From a virus, in IMG/VR virus record IMGVR_UViG_3300028376_000003, positions 64,001 to 128,000 of that record: a DNA stretch of 64,000 bases; one strand, given 5' to 3'. This document shows, in pieces, positions 25,572 through 47,896 of this stretch (positions within the stretch are counted from its first letter, which is position 1; each line of letters begins with the position of its first letter). The notes under the pieces were generated by a model. It saw nothing but the letters and a program-made list of their open reading frames with translations, searched no databases and was not told the DNA's origin. The translations under genes were made by a program, and so were the position numbers.

Positions 25572-25655
25572 ATGAATACTTTTACTAACATAGAATATTA
25601 TTATGAAGAATCTGAACGAAAACGCTCGGCTAGTCTTTTGATGTCTATAATGTAA
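25572..25655 (+). CDS. Attenuator leader peptide 1 (MNTFTNIEYYYEESERKRSASLLMSIM)
   Basis: 27-codon ORF with GAA TAT TAT TAT GAA GAA TCT GAA, directly before a terminator and tRNA-Tyr/tRNA-Glu. Confidence 0.8.
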   Translation: MNTFTNIEYYYEESERKRSASLLMSIM

Positions 25656-25672
25656 ATTAAATTATAGTATAA

Positions 25673-25709
25673 AAAAAACCCAGTCTAGTAATATAGACTG
25701 GGTTTTTTG
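25673..25709 (+). terminator. Attenuator terminator 1
   Basis: aaaaaacccagtcta-gtaata-tagactgggtttttt. Confidence 0.9.
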
Positions 25710-25721
25710 TTTTAAAAATAT

Positions 25722-25887: not shown

Positions 25888-25969
25888 CTAGTTTTAATAT
25901 TGTTTAAAATAGGATTATAATAATATAATGCTTATATTTGCCTATTATTTAATTTTAAAAAGCTTTTAA

Positions 25970-26134
25970 ATGGAAAAAAACACAATACAAGATTTTAAGT
26001 GTGTATATGTTTATAGAACTGGTAAAAAAATACATGAATGTGTATTTAAAGCCTACAATGTTGAGCAAGCTAAGACACATTTTTCGTTTTTTTATCCGAA
26101 AAGGATATTGAAAGAAATTGAATTACAAAAATAA
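25970..26134 (+). CDS. Small hypothetical protein (MEKNTIQDFKCVYVY...)
   Basis: 54 aa ORF read from the sequence, after promoter at 25933. Confidence 0.5.
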   Translation: MEKNTIQDFKCVYVYRTGKKIHECVFKAYNVEQAKTHFSFFYPKRILKEIELQK

Positions 26135-26406: not shown

Positions 26407-26481
26407 ATGAGAACAATTAATAACATAGCAATAATAGCGATAGGCAAAGGGAAAACTCATTGGCTGGGAATTGTTATGTAA
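26407..26481 (+). CDS. Attenuator leader peptide 2 (MRTINNIAIIAIGKGKTHWLGIVM)
   Basis: 24 codons with ATA GCA ATA ATA GCG ATA GGC AAA GGG, before a terminator and tRNA-Ile(UAU)/Gly/Gly/Ala. Confidence 0.82.
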   Translation: MRTINNIAIIAIGKGKTHWLGIVM

Positions 26482-26504
26482 TTAATTTAATTATAAATTA
26501 TCAT

Positions 26505-26533
26505 AAACCCAGTCAGAAATGACTGGGTTTTTT
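26505..26533 (+). terminator. Attenuator terminator 2
   Basis: aaacccagtca-gaaa-tgactgggtttttt; 5' arm also pairs with tggctggg (26461-26468). Confidence 0.9.
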
Positions 26534-26547
26534 ATTTTATTATAAAT

Positions 26548-26629: not shown

Positions 26630-26703
26630 GCAGGTAACGCATAAGTGATGGTGCACTAGCCTTCCAAGCTAGAATAGAATCGGTTTGATCCCGATTACCT
26701 GCT
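26630..26703 (+). tRNA. tRNA-Gly (TCC)
   Basis: ctagc-CTTCCAA-gctag; U73. Confidence 0.82.
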
Positions 26704-29497: not shown

Positions 29498-30733
29498 ATG
29501 AATAACACATCAATTATAGATTCATTTACTGAGCTTAAGTCAGACAAAATGATTAATAAAATAGAGATAATGGAAATCCTAGACTCTGTTTTTAGATTTG
29601 AGTTTAGAAAAAAATATGATACAGATGAAAACTTTGATATAATTCTAAACCCAGATAACGGAGATTTAGAAATATGGCAAAACAAAATCGTTGTACAAGA
29701 TGGCGAGGTTGAAAACCACAATACTGAAATAGAAATTTCAGAAGTTCTTAAGGTGGAGTCAGATTTTGAAATAGGGGAAGAATATCCACAAGAATTCAAA
29801 ATATCAGAATTAGGAAGAAGATCTATATTAAGTTTAAGACAGAATCTAAAGGCTAGAATAAAAGACTACGAAAATAAATCAACAATAGAGAAGTTTGAAG
29901 ATATGATTGGATATATTTTCAATGCCGAAGTCCATCACATAAAAAGAAATATGGTTATATTACTAGATGATGAGGGTATTGAAATTTGTTTACCAAAAGA
30001 TAATCAGATACCTGGTGAGTTTTACAGAAAAGGTGATACAATATCATTTGTGGTAGAAGAAGCTGAAATTAGAAACAATAAGCCATACATTATTGCATCA
30101 AGAACATCAAGTAAGTTTCTAGAAAGAATAATGGAACAAGAAATACCTGAAATATTCGATGGTCTAATAAATATAAAGAACATAGTTAGAGTACCTGGTA
30201 TTAAAGCTAAGGTAGCAGTGGAAACATATGATGATAGAATTGATCCTGTTGGAACTTGTGTTGGTAGTAGAGGAAGTCGAATAATGGCAGTTACTAGAGA
30301 GCTAAATGGTGAGAGTATAGATATCATAAGCTACACAAATAATATGGATTTATATATAACTAGGTCGTTAAAACCAGCCGTTGTTAAATTTATAAAGGTA
30401 GAAGATGGTAAAGCTGACGTTCATTTAAATGGTGAAGATATTGGTAAGGCTATTGGTAAGAAAGGTTCTAATATAAGATTAACTAGCTTACTTACTGGTC
30501 TAGAAATAAATCTTATAAATGATGAGCAAGCTACAGAGGAAGATATAGATCTTATGGAATTTTCTGATGAAGTTGATTTATGGGTAATAAATGAATTTAA
30601 AAAAGCTGGTATAGATACTGCTAAATCATTACTATCTTATGGTTTTAGTGAACTTGTAAATATGACAGATTTAGAGGATGTGACTATTGAGAAGATAATA
30701 AAAATAATCAAACAAGAATTTGTTGATAGTTAA
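29498..30733 (+). CDS. nusA: Transcription termination/antitermination factor NusA
   Basis: NTD, S1 and KH domains; EIPEIFDG, IDPVGTCVGSRGSRI, AIGKKGSNIRL. Confidence 0.95.
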   Translation: MNNTSIIDSFTELKSDKMINKIEIMEILDSVFRFEFRKKYDTDENFDIILNPDNGDLEIWQNKIVVQDGEVENHNTEIEISEVLKVESDFEIGEEYPQEFKISELGRRSILSLRQNLKARIKDYENKSTIEKFEDMIGYIFNAEVHHIKRNMVILLDDEGIEICLPKDNQIPGEFYRKGDTISFVVEEAEIRNNKPYIIASRTSSKFLERIMEQEIPEIFDGLINIKNIVRVPGIKAKVAVETYDDRIDPVGTCVGSRGSRIMAVTRELNGESIDIISYTNNMDLYITRSLKPAVVKFIKVEDGKADVHLNGEDIGKAIGKKGSNIRLTSLLTGLEINLINDEQATEEDIDLMEFSDEVDLWVINEFKKAGIDTAKSLLSYGFSELVNMTDLEDVTIEKIIKIIKQEFVDS

Positions 30734-34842: not shown

Positions 34843-35283
34843 ATGGGAGAAAAAATCACAAAAGGAGATTTATTTTTATTTACATCACATTATGATAATG
34901 GTCGTTCAGTCCATTACTATGGTTCACTTGTAGAAATAATTGGTATTGCAAGTAATAGCATAATGATGGTAACTGGTGAAGGAGATTTAAACACTAAAGA
35001 GAAATTGCTTATAAGAATAATAAAGGATAGTAACTTTAAAGACATTGATTCTAGTAAATTTTCTAAAACGCTTGTAAAAGATTTAAAAATTAAATTTAAA
35101 TTTAATCTAGAAAATGATACCATTGAAGCAGATTCACATGATGTGCACAAGATAAATATAGACTATGGATTAGTTGAAATTGATAAAAAAATAGATAGGC
35201 TTTTAAAAGAGAAAACTCTTTACAATGACTTTCATATCAGGACAAGAAAGCTAAGGAAATTATTAGATGATTCTAATGACTAG
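34843..35283 (+). CDS. Hypothetical protein
   Basis: 146 aa; ends IRTRKLRKLLDD. Confidence 0.65.
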   Translation: MGEKITKGDLFLFTSHYDNGRSVHYYGSLVEIIGIASNSIMMVTGEGDLNTKEKLLIRIIKDSNFKDIDSSKFSKTLVKDLKIKFKFNLENDTIEADSHDVHKINIDYGLVEIDKKIDRLLKEKTLYNDFHIRTRKLRKLLDDSND

Positions 35284-35822
35284 TTATTCTCAAATGGACT
35301 TATCTTAGAATCTATCAAAGACATCAATTCATTGTGTGTTTGTGATAGATTCCTTGATACTAAACCATCTAAAATAAATCTAGTTTCTGTCACATACTTG
35401 CTGACAAATTTATCACTACCTTGTTCTAAATCTGAGCAATTGTGTAATCTATCAGCTAACTTTATAACAAGAGCATAACTAGTCATATTTAGCATTTTAT
35501 CTAATAAATACTCTGATTTACCTACCTTCTCTATTTTGTTATTATCAGATGTAAGTTCTTCTACTATACTACTGACCATTTTTCCAAACTCTTCTTCTAT
35601 ATTACTAATAGTAACATCACAATCTTCAACAGTGTCGTGAAGTAATGCCGCAATACAAATTAGCTCCTTATTTTTACTCACCTTGACCTCCCTAACTATT
35701 TTGCTTACTGCAATTGGGTGCCATGCATATTCTTTGCCAGAAAATTTTCTAAACTGTCCATCGTGTGCCTCTATCATAAATAATAGAGCCTTTCTTAGCT
35801 TTGTTTCTTTTTTAGTTTTCAT
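35280..35822 (-). CDS. Stand-alone RelA/SpoT-type HD hydrolase (small alarmone hydrolase/Mesh1-like)
   Basis: AHDGQFRK.SG.EY..HP, AALLHDTVED, FG..V..IVEELT, IKLADRLHN. Confidence 0.88.
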   Translation of the reverse strand: MKTKKETKLRKALLFMIEAHDGQFRKFSGKEYAWHPIAVSKIVREVKVSKNKELICIAALLHDTVEDCDVTISNIEEEFGKMVSSIVEELTSDNNKIEKVGKSEYLLDKMLNMTSYALVIKLADRLHNCSDLEQGSDKFVSKYVTETRFILDGLVSRNLSQTHNELMSLIDSKISPFENN

Positions 35823-35918
35823 AGTTGTCATATATATTAAACAAATATAACCTTTTTATTTGATATATACAACAGGGGAGATATATACTTTTATATATAT
35901 AATAAAATATAAAAAATC

Positions 35919-37911: not shown

Positions 37912-38031
37912 ATGAAAAATTTAAACCTAAATACAAATAGAAACTTAACGCTCAATGTGGTGAATATTATGTTATGTAATAGACCATCTAGGGGTTCTAG
38001 TGTATTTAATAAATTTCATCTTATGACATAG
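37912..38031 (+). CDS. Attenuator leader peptide 3 (MKNLNLNTNRNLTLNVVNIMLCNRPSRGSSVFNKFHLMT)
   Basis: Codons 3-24 encode only N/L/T/R/V/I/M/C, the amino acids of the 11 downstream tRNAs. Confidence 0.82.
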   Translation: MKNLNLNTNRNLTLNVVNIMLCNRPSRGSSVFNKFHLMT

Positions 38032-38054
38032 TGAAATAAAAAATACAAATAACT

Positions 38055-38090
38055 AAAACCCCTAGAAATGAAAATTCTAGGGGTTTTTTT
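38055..38090 (+). terminator. Attenuator terminator 3
   Basis: aaaacccctagaa-atgaaaa-ttctaggggttttttt; 5' arm also pairs perfectly with tctaggggtt (37987-37996). Confidence 0.9.
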
Positions 38091-38097
38091 GTTTTAT

Positions 38098-38182
38098 GCT
38101 AGTGTGGTGGAATGGTAGACACGAGGGATTCAAAATCCTTTAATCAGAAATGATTATATGAGTTCAAATCTCATCATTAGTA
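38098..38182 (+). tRNA. tRNA-Leu (CAA)
   Basis: aggga-TTCAAAA-tcctt, long variable arm. Confidence 0.88.
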
Positions 38183-38194
38183 CATATATTACAA

Positions 38195-38268
38195 TCCTCG
38201 TTAGCTCAGTGGTCAGAAGCTCTCGTCTGTTAAACGAAAGGTCGGTGGTTCGAATCCACCACGAGGAG
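38195..38268 (+). tRNA. tRNA-Asn (GTT)
   Basis: ctcgt-CTGTTAA-acgaa; G73. Confidence 0.9.
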
Positions 38269-38276
38269 CAAATAAT

Positions 38277-38358
38277 CGGCATATACCAGCCCAAGCTGAT
38301 ACCTTGGAGAACTGTAGTTGGTAAGTTGAAAACGTAGGTTCGAGTCCTACTGTGCCGA
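38277..38358 (+). tRNA. Atypical tRNA-Ile (GAT): no D-arm, 26-nt variable region
   Basis: cggcata/tgtgccg acceptor, 7-nt linker, ccaag-CTGATAC-cttgg, gtagg-TTCGAGT-cctac. Confidence 0.7.
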
Positions 38359-38372
38359 CTTTTATGACACTT

Positions 38373-38457
38373 GTCGGAGTGGTGGAATGGCAGACACGCT
38401 GGGTTTAAGCTCCAGTGGGCAGTGATGTCCGTGAGGGTTCGAGTCCCTTCTCCGATA
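38373..38457 (+). tRNA. tRNA-Leu (TAA)
   Basis: ctggg-TTTAAGC-tccag, long variable arm. Confidence 0.88.
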
Positions 38458-38466
38458 CGAATAAAT

Positions 38467-38556
38467 GCCAGTGTGGTGAAATTGGATGAAACACGCTAGT
38501 CTTAGGAACTAGTACCCAAGAGGTAAACATTGTCGGTTCGAGTCCGACCACTGGTA
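38467..38556 (+). tRNA. tRNA-Leu (TAG)
   Basis: ctagt-CTTAGGA-actag. Confidence 0.88.
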
Positions 38557-38566
38557 CAAAATAAAT

Positions 38567-38647
38567 GCCTTAGTAGTCCCGATTGTCTTCTAAACAATTA
38601 AGGGTAATTGGAAGCTGAAAATATAGGTTCGAGTCCTATCTAGGGTA
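38567..38647 (+). tRNA. Atypical tRNA-Arg (TCT): no D-arm, 24-nt variable region
   Basis: gccttag/ctagggt acceptor, 8-nt linker, attgt-CTTCTAA-acaat, atagg-TTCGAGT-cctat. Confidence 0.7.
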
Positions 38648-38656
38648 CAAATAAAA

Positions 38657-38730
38657 AGTTCTGTAATTCAGGGGTTCAGAATGCTTCCCTTACAAGGAAG
38701 AAGTCGTTGGTTCGAATCCAACCAGAACTA
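38657..38730 (+). tRNA. tRNA-Val (TAC)
   Basis: cttcc-CTTACAA-ggaag. Confidence 0.9.
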
Positions 38731-38736
38731 CAAAAT

Positions 38737-38808
38737 GTACCTATGACCGAGTGATTTAGGTAGGTGGCTGCAACCCATCGTACGGGGGTTTGAATCCCTC
38801 TAGGTACT
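38737..38808 (+). tRNA. tRNA-Cys (GCA)
   Basis: ggtgg-CTGCAAC-ccatc; U73. Confidence 0.88.
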
Positions 38809-38815
38809 CTAATAT

Positions 38816-38888
38816 GCTGACATAGCTCAATTGGTAGAGCATTTGATTTGTAATCAAAAGGTTGTGGGTTCGAAGCCCTCTGTCAGCT
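38816..38888 (+). tRNA. tRNA-Thr (TGT)
   Basis: tttga-TTTGTAA-tcaaa. Confidence 0.9.
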
Positions 38889-38898
38889 CTGAAAAAAT

Positions 38899-38988
38899 GC
38901 ACTAGTGGCGAAGTGGATGAAACGCATCAGACTTAAAATCTGATACCCTTTGAGGTGAACAACGTGGGTTCAAATCCCACCTGGTGTA
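38899..38988 (+). tRNA. tRNA-Leu (TAA), second copy
   Basis: tcaga-CTTAAAA-tctga, long variable arm. Confidence 0.88.
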
Positions 38989-38992
38989 CTAA

Positions 38993-39078
38993 ATCGCTAT
39001 GAACAGATGTGGTAATTGTGCTTGGCTCATATCCAAGTTAGAGAAATCTTATTGTTGGTTCAAGTCCAACTAGCGGTA
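38993..39078 (+). tRNA. tRNA-Met (CAT), elongator or Ile2, with long variable arm
   Basis: cttgg-CTCATAT-ccaag; acceptor atcgcta/tagcggt. Confidence 0.75.
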
Positions 39079-39080
39079 CA

Positions 39081-39120
39081 AAAAAAGAGGGGATATAATT
39101 AATTATATCCCCTCTTTTTT
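39081..39120. terminator. Bidirectional terminator
   Basis: aaaaaagaggggatataattaattatatcccctctttttt, a perfect palindrome. Confidence 0.88.
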
Positions 39121-42620: not shown

Positions 42621-42725
42621 ATGAAAAATTTAAACTTAAACATAGTAGTTAACCCTCAACCCCAAGTTGATATCGATCAGGATTCTGATACGAAAGGTGC
42701 TAACTATGTTTTAAATTTAAGTTGA
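42621..42725 (+). CDS. Attenuator leader peptide 4 (MKNLNLNIVVNPQPQVDIDQDSDTKGANYVLNLS)
   Basis: PQPQVDIDQDSD block before a terminator and (Asp-Gln-Pro)x2 tRNAs. Confidence 0.82.
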   Translation: MKNLNLNIVVNPQPQVDIDQDSDTKGANYVLNLS

Positions 42726-42743
42726 TATTTAAATAATAAAAAC

Positions 42744-42783
42744 AAAAACTCGGTTAGTCTTTTAGATTAACCGAGTTTTTTTT
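42744..42783 (+). terminator. Attenuator terminator 4
   Basis: aaaaactcggttagtct-ttt-agattaaccgagtttttttt. Confidence 0.9.
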
Positions 42784-42791
42784 GTTTATAT

Positions 42792-42959: not shown

Positions 42960-43033
42960 CGAGAAGTGACTAAGGTTATAAGCACGGGTGCATTGGAGGC
43001 ATCAGTTAGCAGGTTCGATTCCTGTCTTCTCGA
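42960..43033 (+). tRNA. tRNA-Pro (TGG)
   Basis: ggtgc-ATTGGAG-gcatc; C1:G72, A73; weak D-arm. Confidence 0.78.
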
Positions 43034-47561: not shown

Positions 47562-47896
47562 TAACTGAAATTAATATAGAGGGGATAGGAATAATAGAAG
47601 TTACTGATTTTAACACTCTATCAAATTCATATACAACATACACTGATGTAATACCTTCTATAGATTGGTCAATTATTACAAATTTGGATTTGGATCTATT
47701 GAATAAACTAAAAAATATGTACAAATTTAATGTTAATAGCAATGTGTTTAATTTTTATAACACATTTGTTAAAAATGTTACGTATGGATATAATCCCAAT
47801 TCTAAATCAATGCATATTACTTTTTGCAGTGATCACTTTGTAAGATTAAGCAAACAAGAAATAAGAAGCTACAAATTAAAAAAAATACTTCATTAA
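47558..47896 (+). CDS. Hypothetical protein
   Basis: 112 aa; ends IRSYKLKKILH. Confidence 0.65.
   Translation: MITEINIEGIGIIEVTDFNTLSNSYTTYTDVIPSIDWSIITNLDLDLLNKLKNMYKFNVNSNVFNFYNTFVKNVTYGYNPNSKSMHITFCSDHFVRLSKQEIRSYKLKKILH

What the first reader, a model, noticed from the sequence alone, without database searches (positions are those of the whole stretch)
38277..38647. Two D-armless tRNAs with a D-loop-like motif relocated to the variable region
Seen: tRNA-Ile(GAT) and tRNA-Arg(TCT) have intact acceptor, anticodon and T arms but only 7-8 nt where the D-arm belongs, and 24-26 nt variable regions sharing TA-RTTGG(T)AAGYTGAAAAY. Apparent covariation: linker CAG can pair with post-anticodon CTG in Ile, and linker CCC with GGG in Arg, each directly before the GG-containing motif. 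Inference: an alternative topology that rebuilds the D/T elbow from the 3' side. The leader contains ATT and AGA codons, and no other Ile(GAT) or Arg tRNA is in the cluster, which suggests they are functional. Standard tRNA finders may miss them.
Basis: partly seen in the sequence, partly recalled or inferred. Interest (0 to 1): 0.8.

Follow-up and report, generated by a model that had tools for sequence, protein, structure and literature searches.

The report
Rewired-core phage tRNAs, Ile and Arg
Two genes in a giant phage's tRNA operon very probably encode working isoleucine and arginine tRNAs that have no D hairpin and present a D-loop-like segment from a strand after the anticodon arm, a conserved non-cloverleaf design that I could not find described in print.

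Summary
Window 38277-38358 (anticodon GAT, Ile) and 38567-38647 (TCT, Arg) have normal acceptor, anticodon and T arms. They have 7-8 nt where the D arm belongs and a 24-26 nt segment with a D-loop-like motif after the anticodon arm.

They are not decayed genes. I collected 103 distinct relatives from viral contigs: Arg TCT/TCG/ACG/CCT, Ile TAT/GAT, one Trp and one Lys.

- **15-48 pair:** the purine after "UA" switches together with the pyrimidine before the T stem, like the canonical 15-48 pair (102 of 103).
- **Helix P:** Arg members have a second, previously unmentioned helix. Nt 8-11 pair with the four nt before AAAAU. RNAalifold recovered it from a MAFFT alignment without my model.
- **Identity:** all 71 Arg members have A after GG, where the ArgRS element A20 sits in E. 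coli tRNA-Arg.

The phage is a relative of the 630-735 kb "huge phages". AGA is 70% of its Arg codons. The operon's leader peptide uses only the amino acids served by the operon, including Ile ATT and Arg AGA.

Function in translation is inferred, not shown. Earlier agents of this scan found the same class many times on other DNA. One of their checks reported that part of the claim fell, without saying which part.

The parts
38277..38358 (+). Rewired tRNA-Ile(GAT) gene, 82 nt including discriminator A; no encoded CCA
   Evidence: Sequence read. Model R1 scores it 86.9 bits, but it was a seed member. ARAGORN and Rfam do not call it.
38284..38289 (+). Ile: 5' splint strand. UAC (nt 8-10) plus H 5' strand CAG (38287-38289).
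   Evidence: H pairs C-G, A-U, G-C with 38312-38314. Family covariation. A9-U and C10-G can pair with GU at 38325-38326. That register holds in 28 of 30 Ile members, with G-C and U-A variants.
38291..38307 (+). Ile anticodon arm, 5 bp plus loop CTGATAC, anticodon GAT at 38298-38300
   Evidence: covariation of all five pairs.
38312..38314 (+). Ile: H 3' strand CTG
38315..38333 (+). Ile: D-loop-like segment U-A-G-UU-GG-U-A-A, then GUUG-AAAA-C. G at 38317 is the '15' partner of C at 38333, the '48' position.
   Evidence: 15-48 covariation: GC 22, AU 14, none broken in alignment A2; 102 of 103.
38334..38350 (+). Ile T arm, GTAGG / TTCGAGT / CCTAC
38567..38647 (+). Rewired tRNA-Arg(TCT) gene, 81 nt including discriminator A; no encoded CCA
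   Evidence: Rfam tRNA 39.1 bits with the D arm deleted. R1 64 bits as a seed member.
38574..38580 (+). Arg: continuous 5' splint strand. P 5' strand UAGU (38574-38577) plus H 5' strand CCC (38578-38580).
   Evidence: P pairs U.G, A-U, G-C, U.G with GCUG at 38614-38617. H pairs with GGG at 38602-38604. RNAalifold predicts both on an unfitted alignment. Pair counts.
38582..38598 (+). Arg anticodon arm, ATTGT / CTTCTAA / ACAAT, anticodon TCT at 38589-38591
38602..38604 (+). Arg: H 3' strand GGG
   Evidence: H 100% paired, 3 of 3 pairs covary.
38605..38613 (+). Arg: D-loop-like bulge U-A-A-UU-GG-A-A between H 3' and P 3'. The A after GG sits where A20 sits in a canonical D loop.
   Evidence: A follows GG in 71 of 71 Arg members; Ile members have T or G there.
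38614..38622 (+). Arg: P 3' strand GCUG (38614-38617), then AAAA-U. U at 38622 is the '48' partner of A at 38607.
   Evidence: Position 10/53: GC 41, AU 23. Position 11/52: CG 37, UA 17, UG 6. Register shifts abolish the pairing.
38623..38639 (+). Arg T arm, ATAGG / TTCGAGT / CCTAT
37912..38034 (+). Context: 39-codon leader ORF of the 13-gene tRNA operon. Residues 8-24 use only the amino acids served by the operon, including Ile ATT and Arg AGA x2.
   Evidence: Translation; probability 5.7e-7.
38055..38087 (+). Context: terminator-like hairpin between the leader ORF and the first tRNA
39081..39120 (+). Context: terminator-like hairpin closing the operon

Best explanation
Both genes encode elongator tRNAs, tRNA-Ile(GAU) for AUU/AUC and tRNA-Arg(UCU) for AGA/AGG. 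They belong to a conserved, mostly phage-borne class whose core is wired differently from the cloverleaf.

The acceptor stem (7 bp), T arm (5 bp, TTCGA loop) and anticodon arm are ordinary. There is no D hairpin. Instead, the strand that follows the acceptor stem (nt 8-13/14) acts as a splint.
- Its 3' part pairs with three nucleotides that lie after the anticodon arm (helix H). H extends the anticodon stem across a small asymmetric internal loop.
- Its 5' part pairs with nucleotides further downstream (helix P). P is 4 bp in Arg. In Ile it is at most 2 Watson-Crick pairs.
- Between the H and P partner strands, a bulge of 9-10 nt in these two genes (8-11 nt across the family) carries the D-loop signature U-A-R..GG-N-A.
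- After P come A-rich nucleotides and a pyrimidine that covaries with the bulge purine.

Inferred, not shown:
- The bulge does the job of the D loop. GG contacts the T loop, and purine '15' pairs with pyrimidine '48'.
- In Arg, the A after GG serves as the A20 identity element for ArgRS.
- The molecule therefore still folds as an L, and is processed, CCA-tailed, charged and used by the ribosome to supply the AT-rich phage's frequent AGA and AUU codons.

Shown: the secondary structure by covariation, conservation of the tertiary-contact and identity nucleotides, and the operon context.
For: **Family.** 37 viral loci matched a first motif scan. Further scans and a structural parser gave 103 distinct members: Arg TCT 50, TCG 12, ACG 8, CCT 1; Ile TAT 19, GAT 11; Trp 1; Lys 1.

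**Covariation.**
- On 36 distinct sequences, 98.7% of cells are paired, against 62% in shuffles and 30-47% in slid registers. H covaries at 3 of 3 pairs. The 15-48 pair is GC 22 / AU 14, with none broken, and it was not in the model.
- On a MAFFT alignment of 66 Arg members that was not fitted to any model, RNAalifold itself returns acceptor + P + H + anticodon + T. There 97.7% of cells are paired. In P, two pairs covary and two are invariant. H is 100% paired.

**Identity features**.
- A follows GG in 71 of 71 Arg members. Ile members have T or G.
- The discriminator is A in all 30 Ile members and G in the Trp member.
- Anticodon loops keep U33 and R37.

**Orthologue.** The huge phage LR745206.1 carries Asn-Ile*-Arg* in the same order. 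Its Arg copy has compensatory changes in the acceptor, anticodon and T stems. Its Ile copy has them in H, the anticodon stem and 15/48. A 741-aa protein is 61.5% identical between the two phages.

**Context.**
- Both genes sit in a tRNA array with 7-14 nt spacers.
- The record has no canonical Arg or Ile(GAT) tRNA.
- AGA is 70% and AGG 21% of Arg codons; ATT+ATC are 36% of Ile codons.
- Residues 8-24 of the leader ORF use only the eight amino acids of this operon, including Ile and Arg. Those two are served here only by the rewired genes. Three other arrays in the window show the same leader logic.
- In a complete 172-kb phage with 22 canonical tRNAs, no Ile tRNA is called and the rewired Ile(GAT) fills that gap; one of two Met(CAT) calls could be an AUA-reading Ile.
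Against: - No expression, processing or charging data.
- The 3D fold is not modelled. If P stacks on H and the anticodon stem, the arm is 2-3 layers longer than in a cloverleaf. Only 1-2 nt link GG to P.
- Some phages, and one bacterium, carry a canonical tRNA with the same anticodon beside the rewired one: G019 (7 nt apart), LR745206.1, Felix O1 and Brucella haematophila. So the rewired copy is not always needed as the only decoder.
- The Ile orthologue in LR745206.1 has lost the TTCGA T loop. Individual copies can decay.
- The discriminator of Arg members varies (A 31, U 21, G 19).
- This record is only about 20% of the genome.
- Earlier notes of this scan say that part of the same claim fell in a check on other DNA, without saying which part.
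Confidence: 0.8

Rival explanations
1. They are tRNA-shaped RNAs with a role other than, or additional to, ordinary decoding. Two examples: versions that escape host or phage nucleases which recognise the canonical D arm or elbow of tRNA-Arg and tRNA-Ile, or decoys that titrate such enzymes. The rewiring would then be an adaptation in a conflict, not a neutral alternative fold.
For: - Rewired and canonical tRNAs with the same anticodon lie side by side in G019 and LR745206.1, and both occur in Felix O1. That is hard to explain by codon supply alone.
- The class is concentrated in two or three amino-acid families.
- In PA11 and Felix O1 the rewired gene abuts or overlaps an HNH endonuclease gene. 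A gene-level conflict, in which the allele is immune to a homing nuclease, is also conceivable.
Against: - No nuclease or defence gene is linked to it here. The neighbours have no HNH domain.
- Identity elements, a canonical anticodon loop and a 7/5 acceptor-T branch are all kept. A pure decoy would not need all of them.
- It is the only Ile(GAT) gene in a complete phage.
- The escape version of this idea is compatible with the best explanation rather than a true alternative.
Confidence: 0.13
2. They are decayed tRNA pseudogenes: relics that lost the D arm and gained an insertion in the variable region.
For: - ARAGORN and, for Ile, Rfam do not call them.
- One orthologue, the Ile copy of LR745206.1, has a degenerate T loop.
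Against: - 103 distinct members share one architecture, with compensatory changes in every helix and in the 15-48 pair.
- The GG, UA and T-loop motifs are invariant.
- Spacing in the operon is exact.
- Decay would not preserve pairing at 97-99%.
Confidence: 0.03
3. The Ile RNA folds as the minimum-energy prediction suggests. Nt 8-14 (UACCAGC) pair with GUUGGUA of the GG motif, making one long rod. The GG is then a helix strand, not an elbow contact.
For: - This is the MFE and centroid fold of the window sequence, at -24.9 kcal/mol, z = -2.5.
- In Ile members, a mean of 5.3 of these 7 positions can pair, mainly U8-A, C10-G and C11-G.
Against: - Those positions are nearly invariant, so they give no covariation.
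- The three variable positions pair in only 21, 12 and 19 of 30 Ile members. Arg members average 2.5 of 7.
- The competing H helix is 97-100% paired with changes on both sides, including C11-G to A-U in L019.
- K20 is G in many TAT members, which breaks A9-U20.
Confidence: 0.04

Closest known systems
Canonical class I elongator tRNA (Rfam RF00005), e.g. bacterial and phage tRNA-Arg(UCU) and tRNA-Ile(GAU)
   Same: - 7-bp acceptor stem stacked on a 5-bp T stem, with a TTCGA T loop.
- 5-bp anticodon stem with a 7-nt loop (U33, purine 37).
- UA after the acceptor stem, a GG motif, a covarying 15-48 type pair, and A after GG in Arg.
- Placement in tRNA operons.
   Different: - No D hairpin between the acceptor and anticodon arms.
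- The D-loop-like segment lies 3' of the anticodon arm, as a bulge.
- Its two flanking strands do not pair with each other. Both pair with one continuous 5' strand (helices H and P).
- The result is a three-way rather than a four-way junction.
Metazoan mitochondrial D-armless tRNAs (tRNA-Ser AGY/UCU type; nematode and mite armless tRNAs), as reviewed in PMC7609411 and PMC4013460
   Same: No D hairpin, and only a short connector between the acceptor and anticodon stems.
   Different: - By those reviews, the mitochondrial forms lack conserved GG/T-loop elbow motifs, are shortened, and rely on flexible or boomerang shapes and co-evolved factors.
- The phage RNAs are full length (79-82 nt).
- They keep GG, TTCGA and the 15-48 covariation.
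- They presumably have to work with ordinary bacterial enzymes.
allo-tRNAs and (8/4) tRNA-Ser/His of bacteria and phages (Mukai et al., PMC5389517)
   Same: Non-canonical tRNAs found in metagenomes and in phage tRNA clusters, missed or mislabelled by gene finders.
   Different: They alter the acceptor/T split (8/4, 9/3) and have long variable arms, but keep a D arm in the normal place. Here the split is 7/5 and the D region is rewired.
Circularly permuted tRNA genes of the red alga Cyanidioschyzon merolae (from my own knowledge, not checked here)
   Same: tRNA segments are in a non-standard order along the gene.
   Different: There the 3' half precedes the 5' half, and processing through a circular intermediate restores a normal cloverleaf. 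Here the acceptor halves are at the two ends. No excision could restore the canonical order, so the mature RNA itself must be non-cloverleaf.

Membership tests
Canonical tRNA (Rfam RF00005 cloverleaf) | 7-bp acceptor stem, 5-bp T stem and T loop of TTCRA type | tested here: met
Canonical tRNA (Rfam RF00005 cloverleaf) | 5-bp anticodon stem with a 7-nt loop, U33 and purine 37 | tested here: met
   loops CTGATAC and CTTCTAA; family.
Canonical tRNA (Rfam RF00005 cloverleaf) | D hairpin (stem 10-13/22-25 closed by the D loop) between the acceptor and anticodon arms | tested here: not met
   Only 7-8 nt lie there. Rfam aligns the Arg gene with the D arm as a deletion. ARAGORN calls neither gene.
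Canonical tRNA (Rfam RF00005 cloverleaf) | Score at or above the Rfam gathering threshold (29 bits) | tested here: inconclusive
   Arg scores 39.1 bits (met). Ile scores only 13.9 bits, on the T arm alone (not met)..
Canonical tRNA (Rfam RF00005 cloverleaf) | Aminoacylation and use in decoding | not testable with these tools
Rewired-core phage tRNA class (defined here by model R1 and alignments A2, A4) | 3-bp helix H between nt 11-14 and the strand 2-5 nt after the anticodon stem, with covariation | tested here: met
   Window pairs are CAG/CTG and CCC/GGG.
Rewired-core phage tRNA class (defined here by model R1 and alignments A2, A4) | U-A-R..GG-N-A segment directly after the H 3' strand | tested here: met
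Rewired-core phage tRNA class (defined here by model R1 and alignments A2, A4) | Purine '15' covaries with the pyrimidine before the T stem | tested here: met
   G/C in the Ile gene and A/T in the Arg gene. Family 102 of 103.
Rewired-core phage tRNA class (defined here by model R1 and alignments A2, A4) | Helix P between nt 8-11 and the four nt before the A-rich tail | tested here: inconclusive
   The Arg gene meets it: 4 bp, with family covariation. The Ile gene has only A9-U and C10-G, with little variation in the family.
Mitochondrial-type D-armless tRNA | Loss of the D arm together with loss of the conserved GG / T-loop elbow motifs; truncated length | tested here: not met
   GG and TTCGA are invariant and length is 79-82 nt.
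allo-tRNA / (8/4) tRNA | 12-bp acceptor branch split 8/4 or 9/3 | tested here: not met
   The split is 7/5 in both genes.
Class II tRNA (long variable arm) | The extra region forms its own hairpin | tested here: not met
   The consensus folds give no hairpin in the 24-26 nt region. Its nucleotides pair with the 5' linker instead.
Permuted tRNA gene | 3' half of the tRNA encoded upstream of the 5' half | tested here: not met
   The acceptor 5' and 3' strands are at the two ends in normal order.

The most novel reading that the evidence does not exclude
The rewired core is an adaptive, phage-specific tRNA design. It keeps every surface needed by RNase P, the CCA enzyme, the cognate synthetase, EF-Tu and the ribosome, but removes the canonical D hairpin. 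These tRNAs would then survive nucleases (host defence, or the phage's own host-shutoff enzymes) or homing endonucleases that recognise ordinary tRNA-Arg and tRNA-Ile or their genes. That would explain why rewired and canonical copies with the same anticodon sit side by side, and why the class is concentrated in Arg and Ile.
Probability: 0.2. Interest if true: 0.92.

Novelty: new variant of a known kind. Interest (0 to 1): 0.82.

Why it matters
Outside organelles, the cloverleaf with a D hairpin is treated as universal for tRNA. A 2020 review of non-canonical tRNAs (PMC7609411) lists no such case and does not mention phages.

If these RNAs are charged and decode, three things follow.
- The L-shape can be built from a different strand topology that ordinary bacterial enzymes accept.
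- tRNA gene counts in phage genomes, and codon-supply or recoding analyses built on them, are systematically short for Arg and Ile.
- tRNA engineers gain a natural alternative scaffold.

Cultured carriers (Pseudomonas phage PA11, Salmonella phage Felix O1) make the question directly testable.

Tried and rejected
- **megablast of 8 kb around the array against GenBank phages:** no match. blastn with the Ile gene also gave nothing.
- **First Arg motif with variable gaps:** gave mostly chance hits in coding sequence. Only 6 of 80 loci were real. I replaced it with a T-arm-anchored pattern.
- **Genome-contig scan:** only 5 of the 102 loci (6 genes) were rewired tRNAs. The two in isolates (Brucella haematophila, Ochrobactrum sp.) lie near tRNA-Gln(CTG), with no recognisable phage genes in the 8 kb read. 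That genome has its own canonical Arg(TCT). I therefore do not call the class 'phage-only'.
- **D hairpin AACT/AGTT inside the Ile variable region:** seen by eye, not conserved in the family.
- **CC (nt 10-11) pairing with GG:** rejected, see the fourth rival.
- **Literature:** seven full-text searches and two papers read found no description. Subscription journals and the older T5/BF23 literature are not covered.
- **A guessed coordinate for the Lys(CTT) member:** it was wrong, and that row should be ignored.

Full report
**What is in the sequence**

The window is bases 64001-128000 of a 141.5-kb IMG/VR virus record that CheckV rates 20% complete. Its GC content is 28.7%. A 741-aa protein next to the array is 61.5% and 55.6% identical to proteins of the uncultured huge phages LR745206.1 (634.8 kb) and LR756502.1 (642 kb). 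It has weaker matches to 636-735 kb phages and to phages of Bacteroidota hosts. The record is therefore a fragment of a very large phage, probably of a Bacteroidota host.

ARAGORN finds 20 tRNAs in the record, all in the window. It leaves two roughly 100-nt gaps in the array at 38098-39079. The flagged genes lie in those gaps. The first, at 38277-38358, has anticodon GAT. The second, at 38567-38647, has anticodon TCT.

Spacers to the neighbouring tRNAs are 7-14 nt. Rfam's tRNA model reaches its threshold only for the Arg gene, at 39.1 bits, and only by deleting the D arm. For the Ile gene it scores just the T arm.

**It is a family**

A scan of viral contigs for the tail-plus-T-arm motif returned 37 loci, about 27 of them with the same architecture. 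A covariance model built from 24 sequences (R1) found further copies in the same phages. These included a Trp(CCA) member and members whose tail differs from AAGYTGAAAAY.

A T-arm-anchored Arg pattern, which replaced a first gapped motif that gave mostly chance hits, and a structural parser brought the total to 103 distinct sequences:
- Arg: TCT 50, TCG 12, ACG 8, CCT 1
- Ile: TAT 19, GAT 11
- Trp: 1
- Lys: 1

. Members outside the seed score 41-55 bits with R1. Ordinary tRNAs score 16-40 bits.

**Secondary structure**

On 36 distinct sequences, 98.7% of pair cells are standard pairs. Shuffles give 62% and slid registers give 30-47%. Sixteen different H helices occur.

The purine after the invariant UA switches together with the pyrimidine just before the T stem. 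The counts are GC 22 and AU 14 with none broken, and this pair was not part of the model. Over all 103 sequences the counts are AT 81, GC 21 and one exception. Both states occur within the Ile-GAT group and within the Ile-TAT group, so the switch happened more than once. This matches the behaviour of the canonical 15-48 pair.

In Arg members, nt 8-11 (U-A-R-Y) pair with the four nucleotides (R-Y-U-G) just before the AAAAU tail.
- Position 10 is GC 44 / AT 24.
- Position 11 is CG 39 / TA 19 / TG 6.
- There are 5 mismatches in 70, and the pairing disappears in shifted registers.

RNAalifold was given only a MAFFT alignment of 66 Arg members. It predicted acceptor + P + H + anticodon + T by itself. 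Pair counting on that unfitted alignment gives 97.7% paired, with P at 97.7% and H at 100%.

In the window's Arg gene, P is U.G, A-U, G-C, U.G (38574-38577 with 38614-38617). In Ile members only A9-U and C10-G are available. They hold in 28 of 30, with one G-C and one U-A variant, and RNAalifold does not call them.

The resulting picture is a three-way junction of acceptor, T arm and one long arm. The long arm is built from P, H and the anticodon stem on one continuous 5' strand. A bulge of 9-10 nt in these two genes (8-11 nt across the family), U-A-R..GG-N-A, lies between the partner strands of H and P.

The bulge's flanks are the strands that would be 10-13 and 22-25 in a cloverleaf. Here they pair with a splint instead of with each other.

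**Function: inferred steps**

- The bulge keeps the nucleotides that make the canonical core contacts. From general tRNA knowledge these are A14, R15-Y48, and G18 G19 to the T loop.
- A follows GG in 71 of 71 Arg members, but T or G follows it in Ile. From my own knowledge, A20 is the major D-loop identity element for E. coli ArgRS.
- All 30 Ile members have A73, and the Trp member has G73.
- The LR745206.1 orthologues, in the same Asn-Ile*-Arg* order, differ from the window genes by compensatory changes in several stems.
- The phage's codon use fits. AGA is 70% and AGG 21% of Arg codons. ATT+ATC are 36% of Ile codons, and a canonical Ile(TAT) gene serves ATA.
- The record has no canonical Arg or Ile(GAT) gene, but it is only a fifth of the genome.
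- In a complete 172-kb phage (G017) ARAGORN canonical tRNAs and none for Ile, so the rewired Ile(GAT) fills that gap. One of its two Met(CAT) calls could be an AUA-reading Ile.

**The leader ORF**

The operon is preceded by a 39-codon ORF and a terminator-like hairpin. Residues 8-24 of the ORF (TNRNLTLNVVNIMLCNR) use only the eight amino acids served by the downstream tRNAs. The probability is 5.7e-7 given the phage's amino-acid usage. Ile (ATT) and Arg (AGA twice) are among them, and in this operon only the rewired genes serve those two.

Three other arrays in the window have short upstream ORFs enriched in the amino acids of their own tRNAs:
- EYYYEESE before Tyr and Glu
- IAIIAIGKG before Ile, Gly, Gly and Ala
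- PQPQVDIDQDSD before Asp, Gln and Pro

. If these are attenuator-type leaders, the phage's own regulation treats the rewired genes as decoders. This is circumstantial, and it belongs to another finding of this scan.

**Against, and open**

- There are no expression or charging data.
- The 3D shape is unknown. If P stacks on H, the anticodon arm is 2-3 layers longer than normal.
- Canonical and rewired genes with the same anticodon co-exist in G019 (7 nt apart), LR745206.1, Felix O1 and a Brucella haematophila chromosome. That suggests redundancy or a special role.
- The Ile orthologue in LR745206.1 has lost its TTCGA loop.
- The minimum-energy fold of the window's Ile gene is a different, rod-like pairing of nt 8-14 with the GG motif. 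In the family it rests on invariant positions, and its variable positions pair poorly. I reject it in favour of H.

**Known or new**

- Cultured phages carry members that their records do not annotate. Pseudomonas phage PA11 has one at 47672-47751, overlapping the end of an HNH gene.
- Felix O1 has a diverged one at 25951-26029, overlapping the start of an HNH gene.
- Seven full-text searches and two relevant papers gave no description of such a tRNA. Coverage of subscription journals is poor.
- Earlier agents of this scan reported the same class many times on other DNA. They noted that part of the claim fell in one check, without saying which part. I therefore avoid 'phage-only' and 'always missed by finders'. 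Two bacterial isolates carry a copy. Rfam calls the Arg gene, and ARAGORN called the Arg copy of LR745206.1 with wrong ends.

**Verdict**

These are real, conserved, non-cloverleaf tRNA genes. They are a new structural variant of a known kind of molecule. Function in translation is likely but untested.

Noticed in passing
window 37912-38095; 25573-25710; 26408-26536; 42621-42785: Each tRNA array is preceded by a short ORF, then a terminator-like hairpin. The middle of each ORF is enriched in exactly the amino acids of the downstream tRNAs. Two leaders share the start MKNLNLN. This looks like leader-peptide attenuation of tRNA operons.
   Followed up: partly
window 29498-30733 (+): The phage encodes a NusA homologue with NusA_N and KH domains (Pfam E 5e-23 and 4e-24). 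This is notable beside the putative attenuators.
   Followed up: no
window 35280-35831 (-): HD_4 / HD domain protein (RelA/SpoT-type hydrolase fold) about 2.3 kb upstream of the array.
   Followed up: no
window 26630-26703 and 42960-43033 (+): Two further tRNA-like genes that Rfam calls (44 and 30.4 bits) but ARAGORN misses. Read by eye, their anticodon loops suggest TCC (Gly) and TGG (Pro). Irregular D or T regions.
   Followed up: no
window 38993-39079 (+): An 87-nt tRNA with anticodon CAT, a long variable region and an irregular D region. Its Rfam score is low (39.6 bits). Identity unclear.
   Followed up: no
family-wide; window 38567/38646: A G1.U72 wobble closes the acceptor stem in 46 of 103 rewired tRNAs. 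It also occurs in several ordinary tRNAs of this phage, for example at 38467 and 38899.
   Followed up: no
L100 (NC_007808 47672-47751); L488 25951-26029 (NC_005282): In PA11 and Felix O1 the unannotated rewired tRNA-Arg gene overlaps the end or the start of an HNH endonuclease CDS.
   Followed up: partly
L344 6519-6598 (Brucella haematophila CCUG 38531); L405 (Ochrobactrum sp. CM-21-5): A rewired tRNA-Arg(TCT) sits in two isolate chromosomes near tRNA-Gln(CTG), a catalase and a PAS/HWE kinase. This is in addition to a canonical Arg(TCT). No phage genes were recognised in the 8 kb read.
   Followed up: partly
L101 2409-2487 (LR745206.1): The orthologue of the window's Ile gene keeps H, the anticodon arm and 15/48, but has CTCAGAA in place of the TTCGA T loop. 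A canonical Ile(GAT) lies 500 nt away. This copy is possibly decaying.
   Followed up: no
L487 6833-6908 (G019, complete 362-kb phage): ARAGORN calls a tRNA with anticodon CTA (amber reader) and one with ATA. This hints at stop-codon reassignment in that phage.
   Followed up: no
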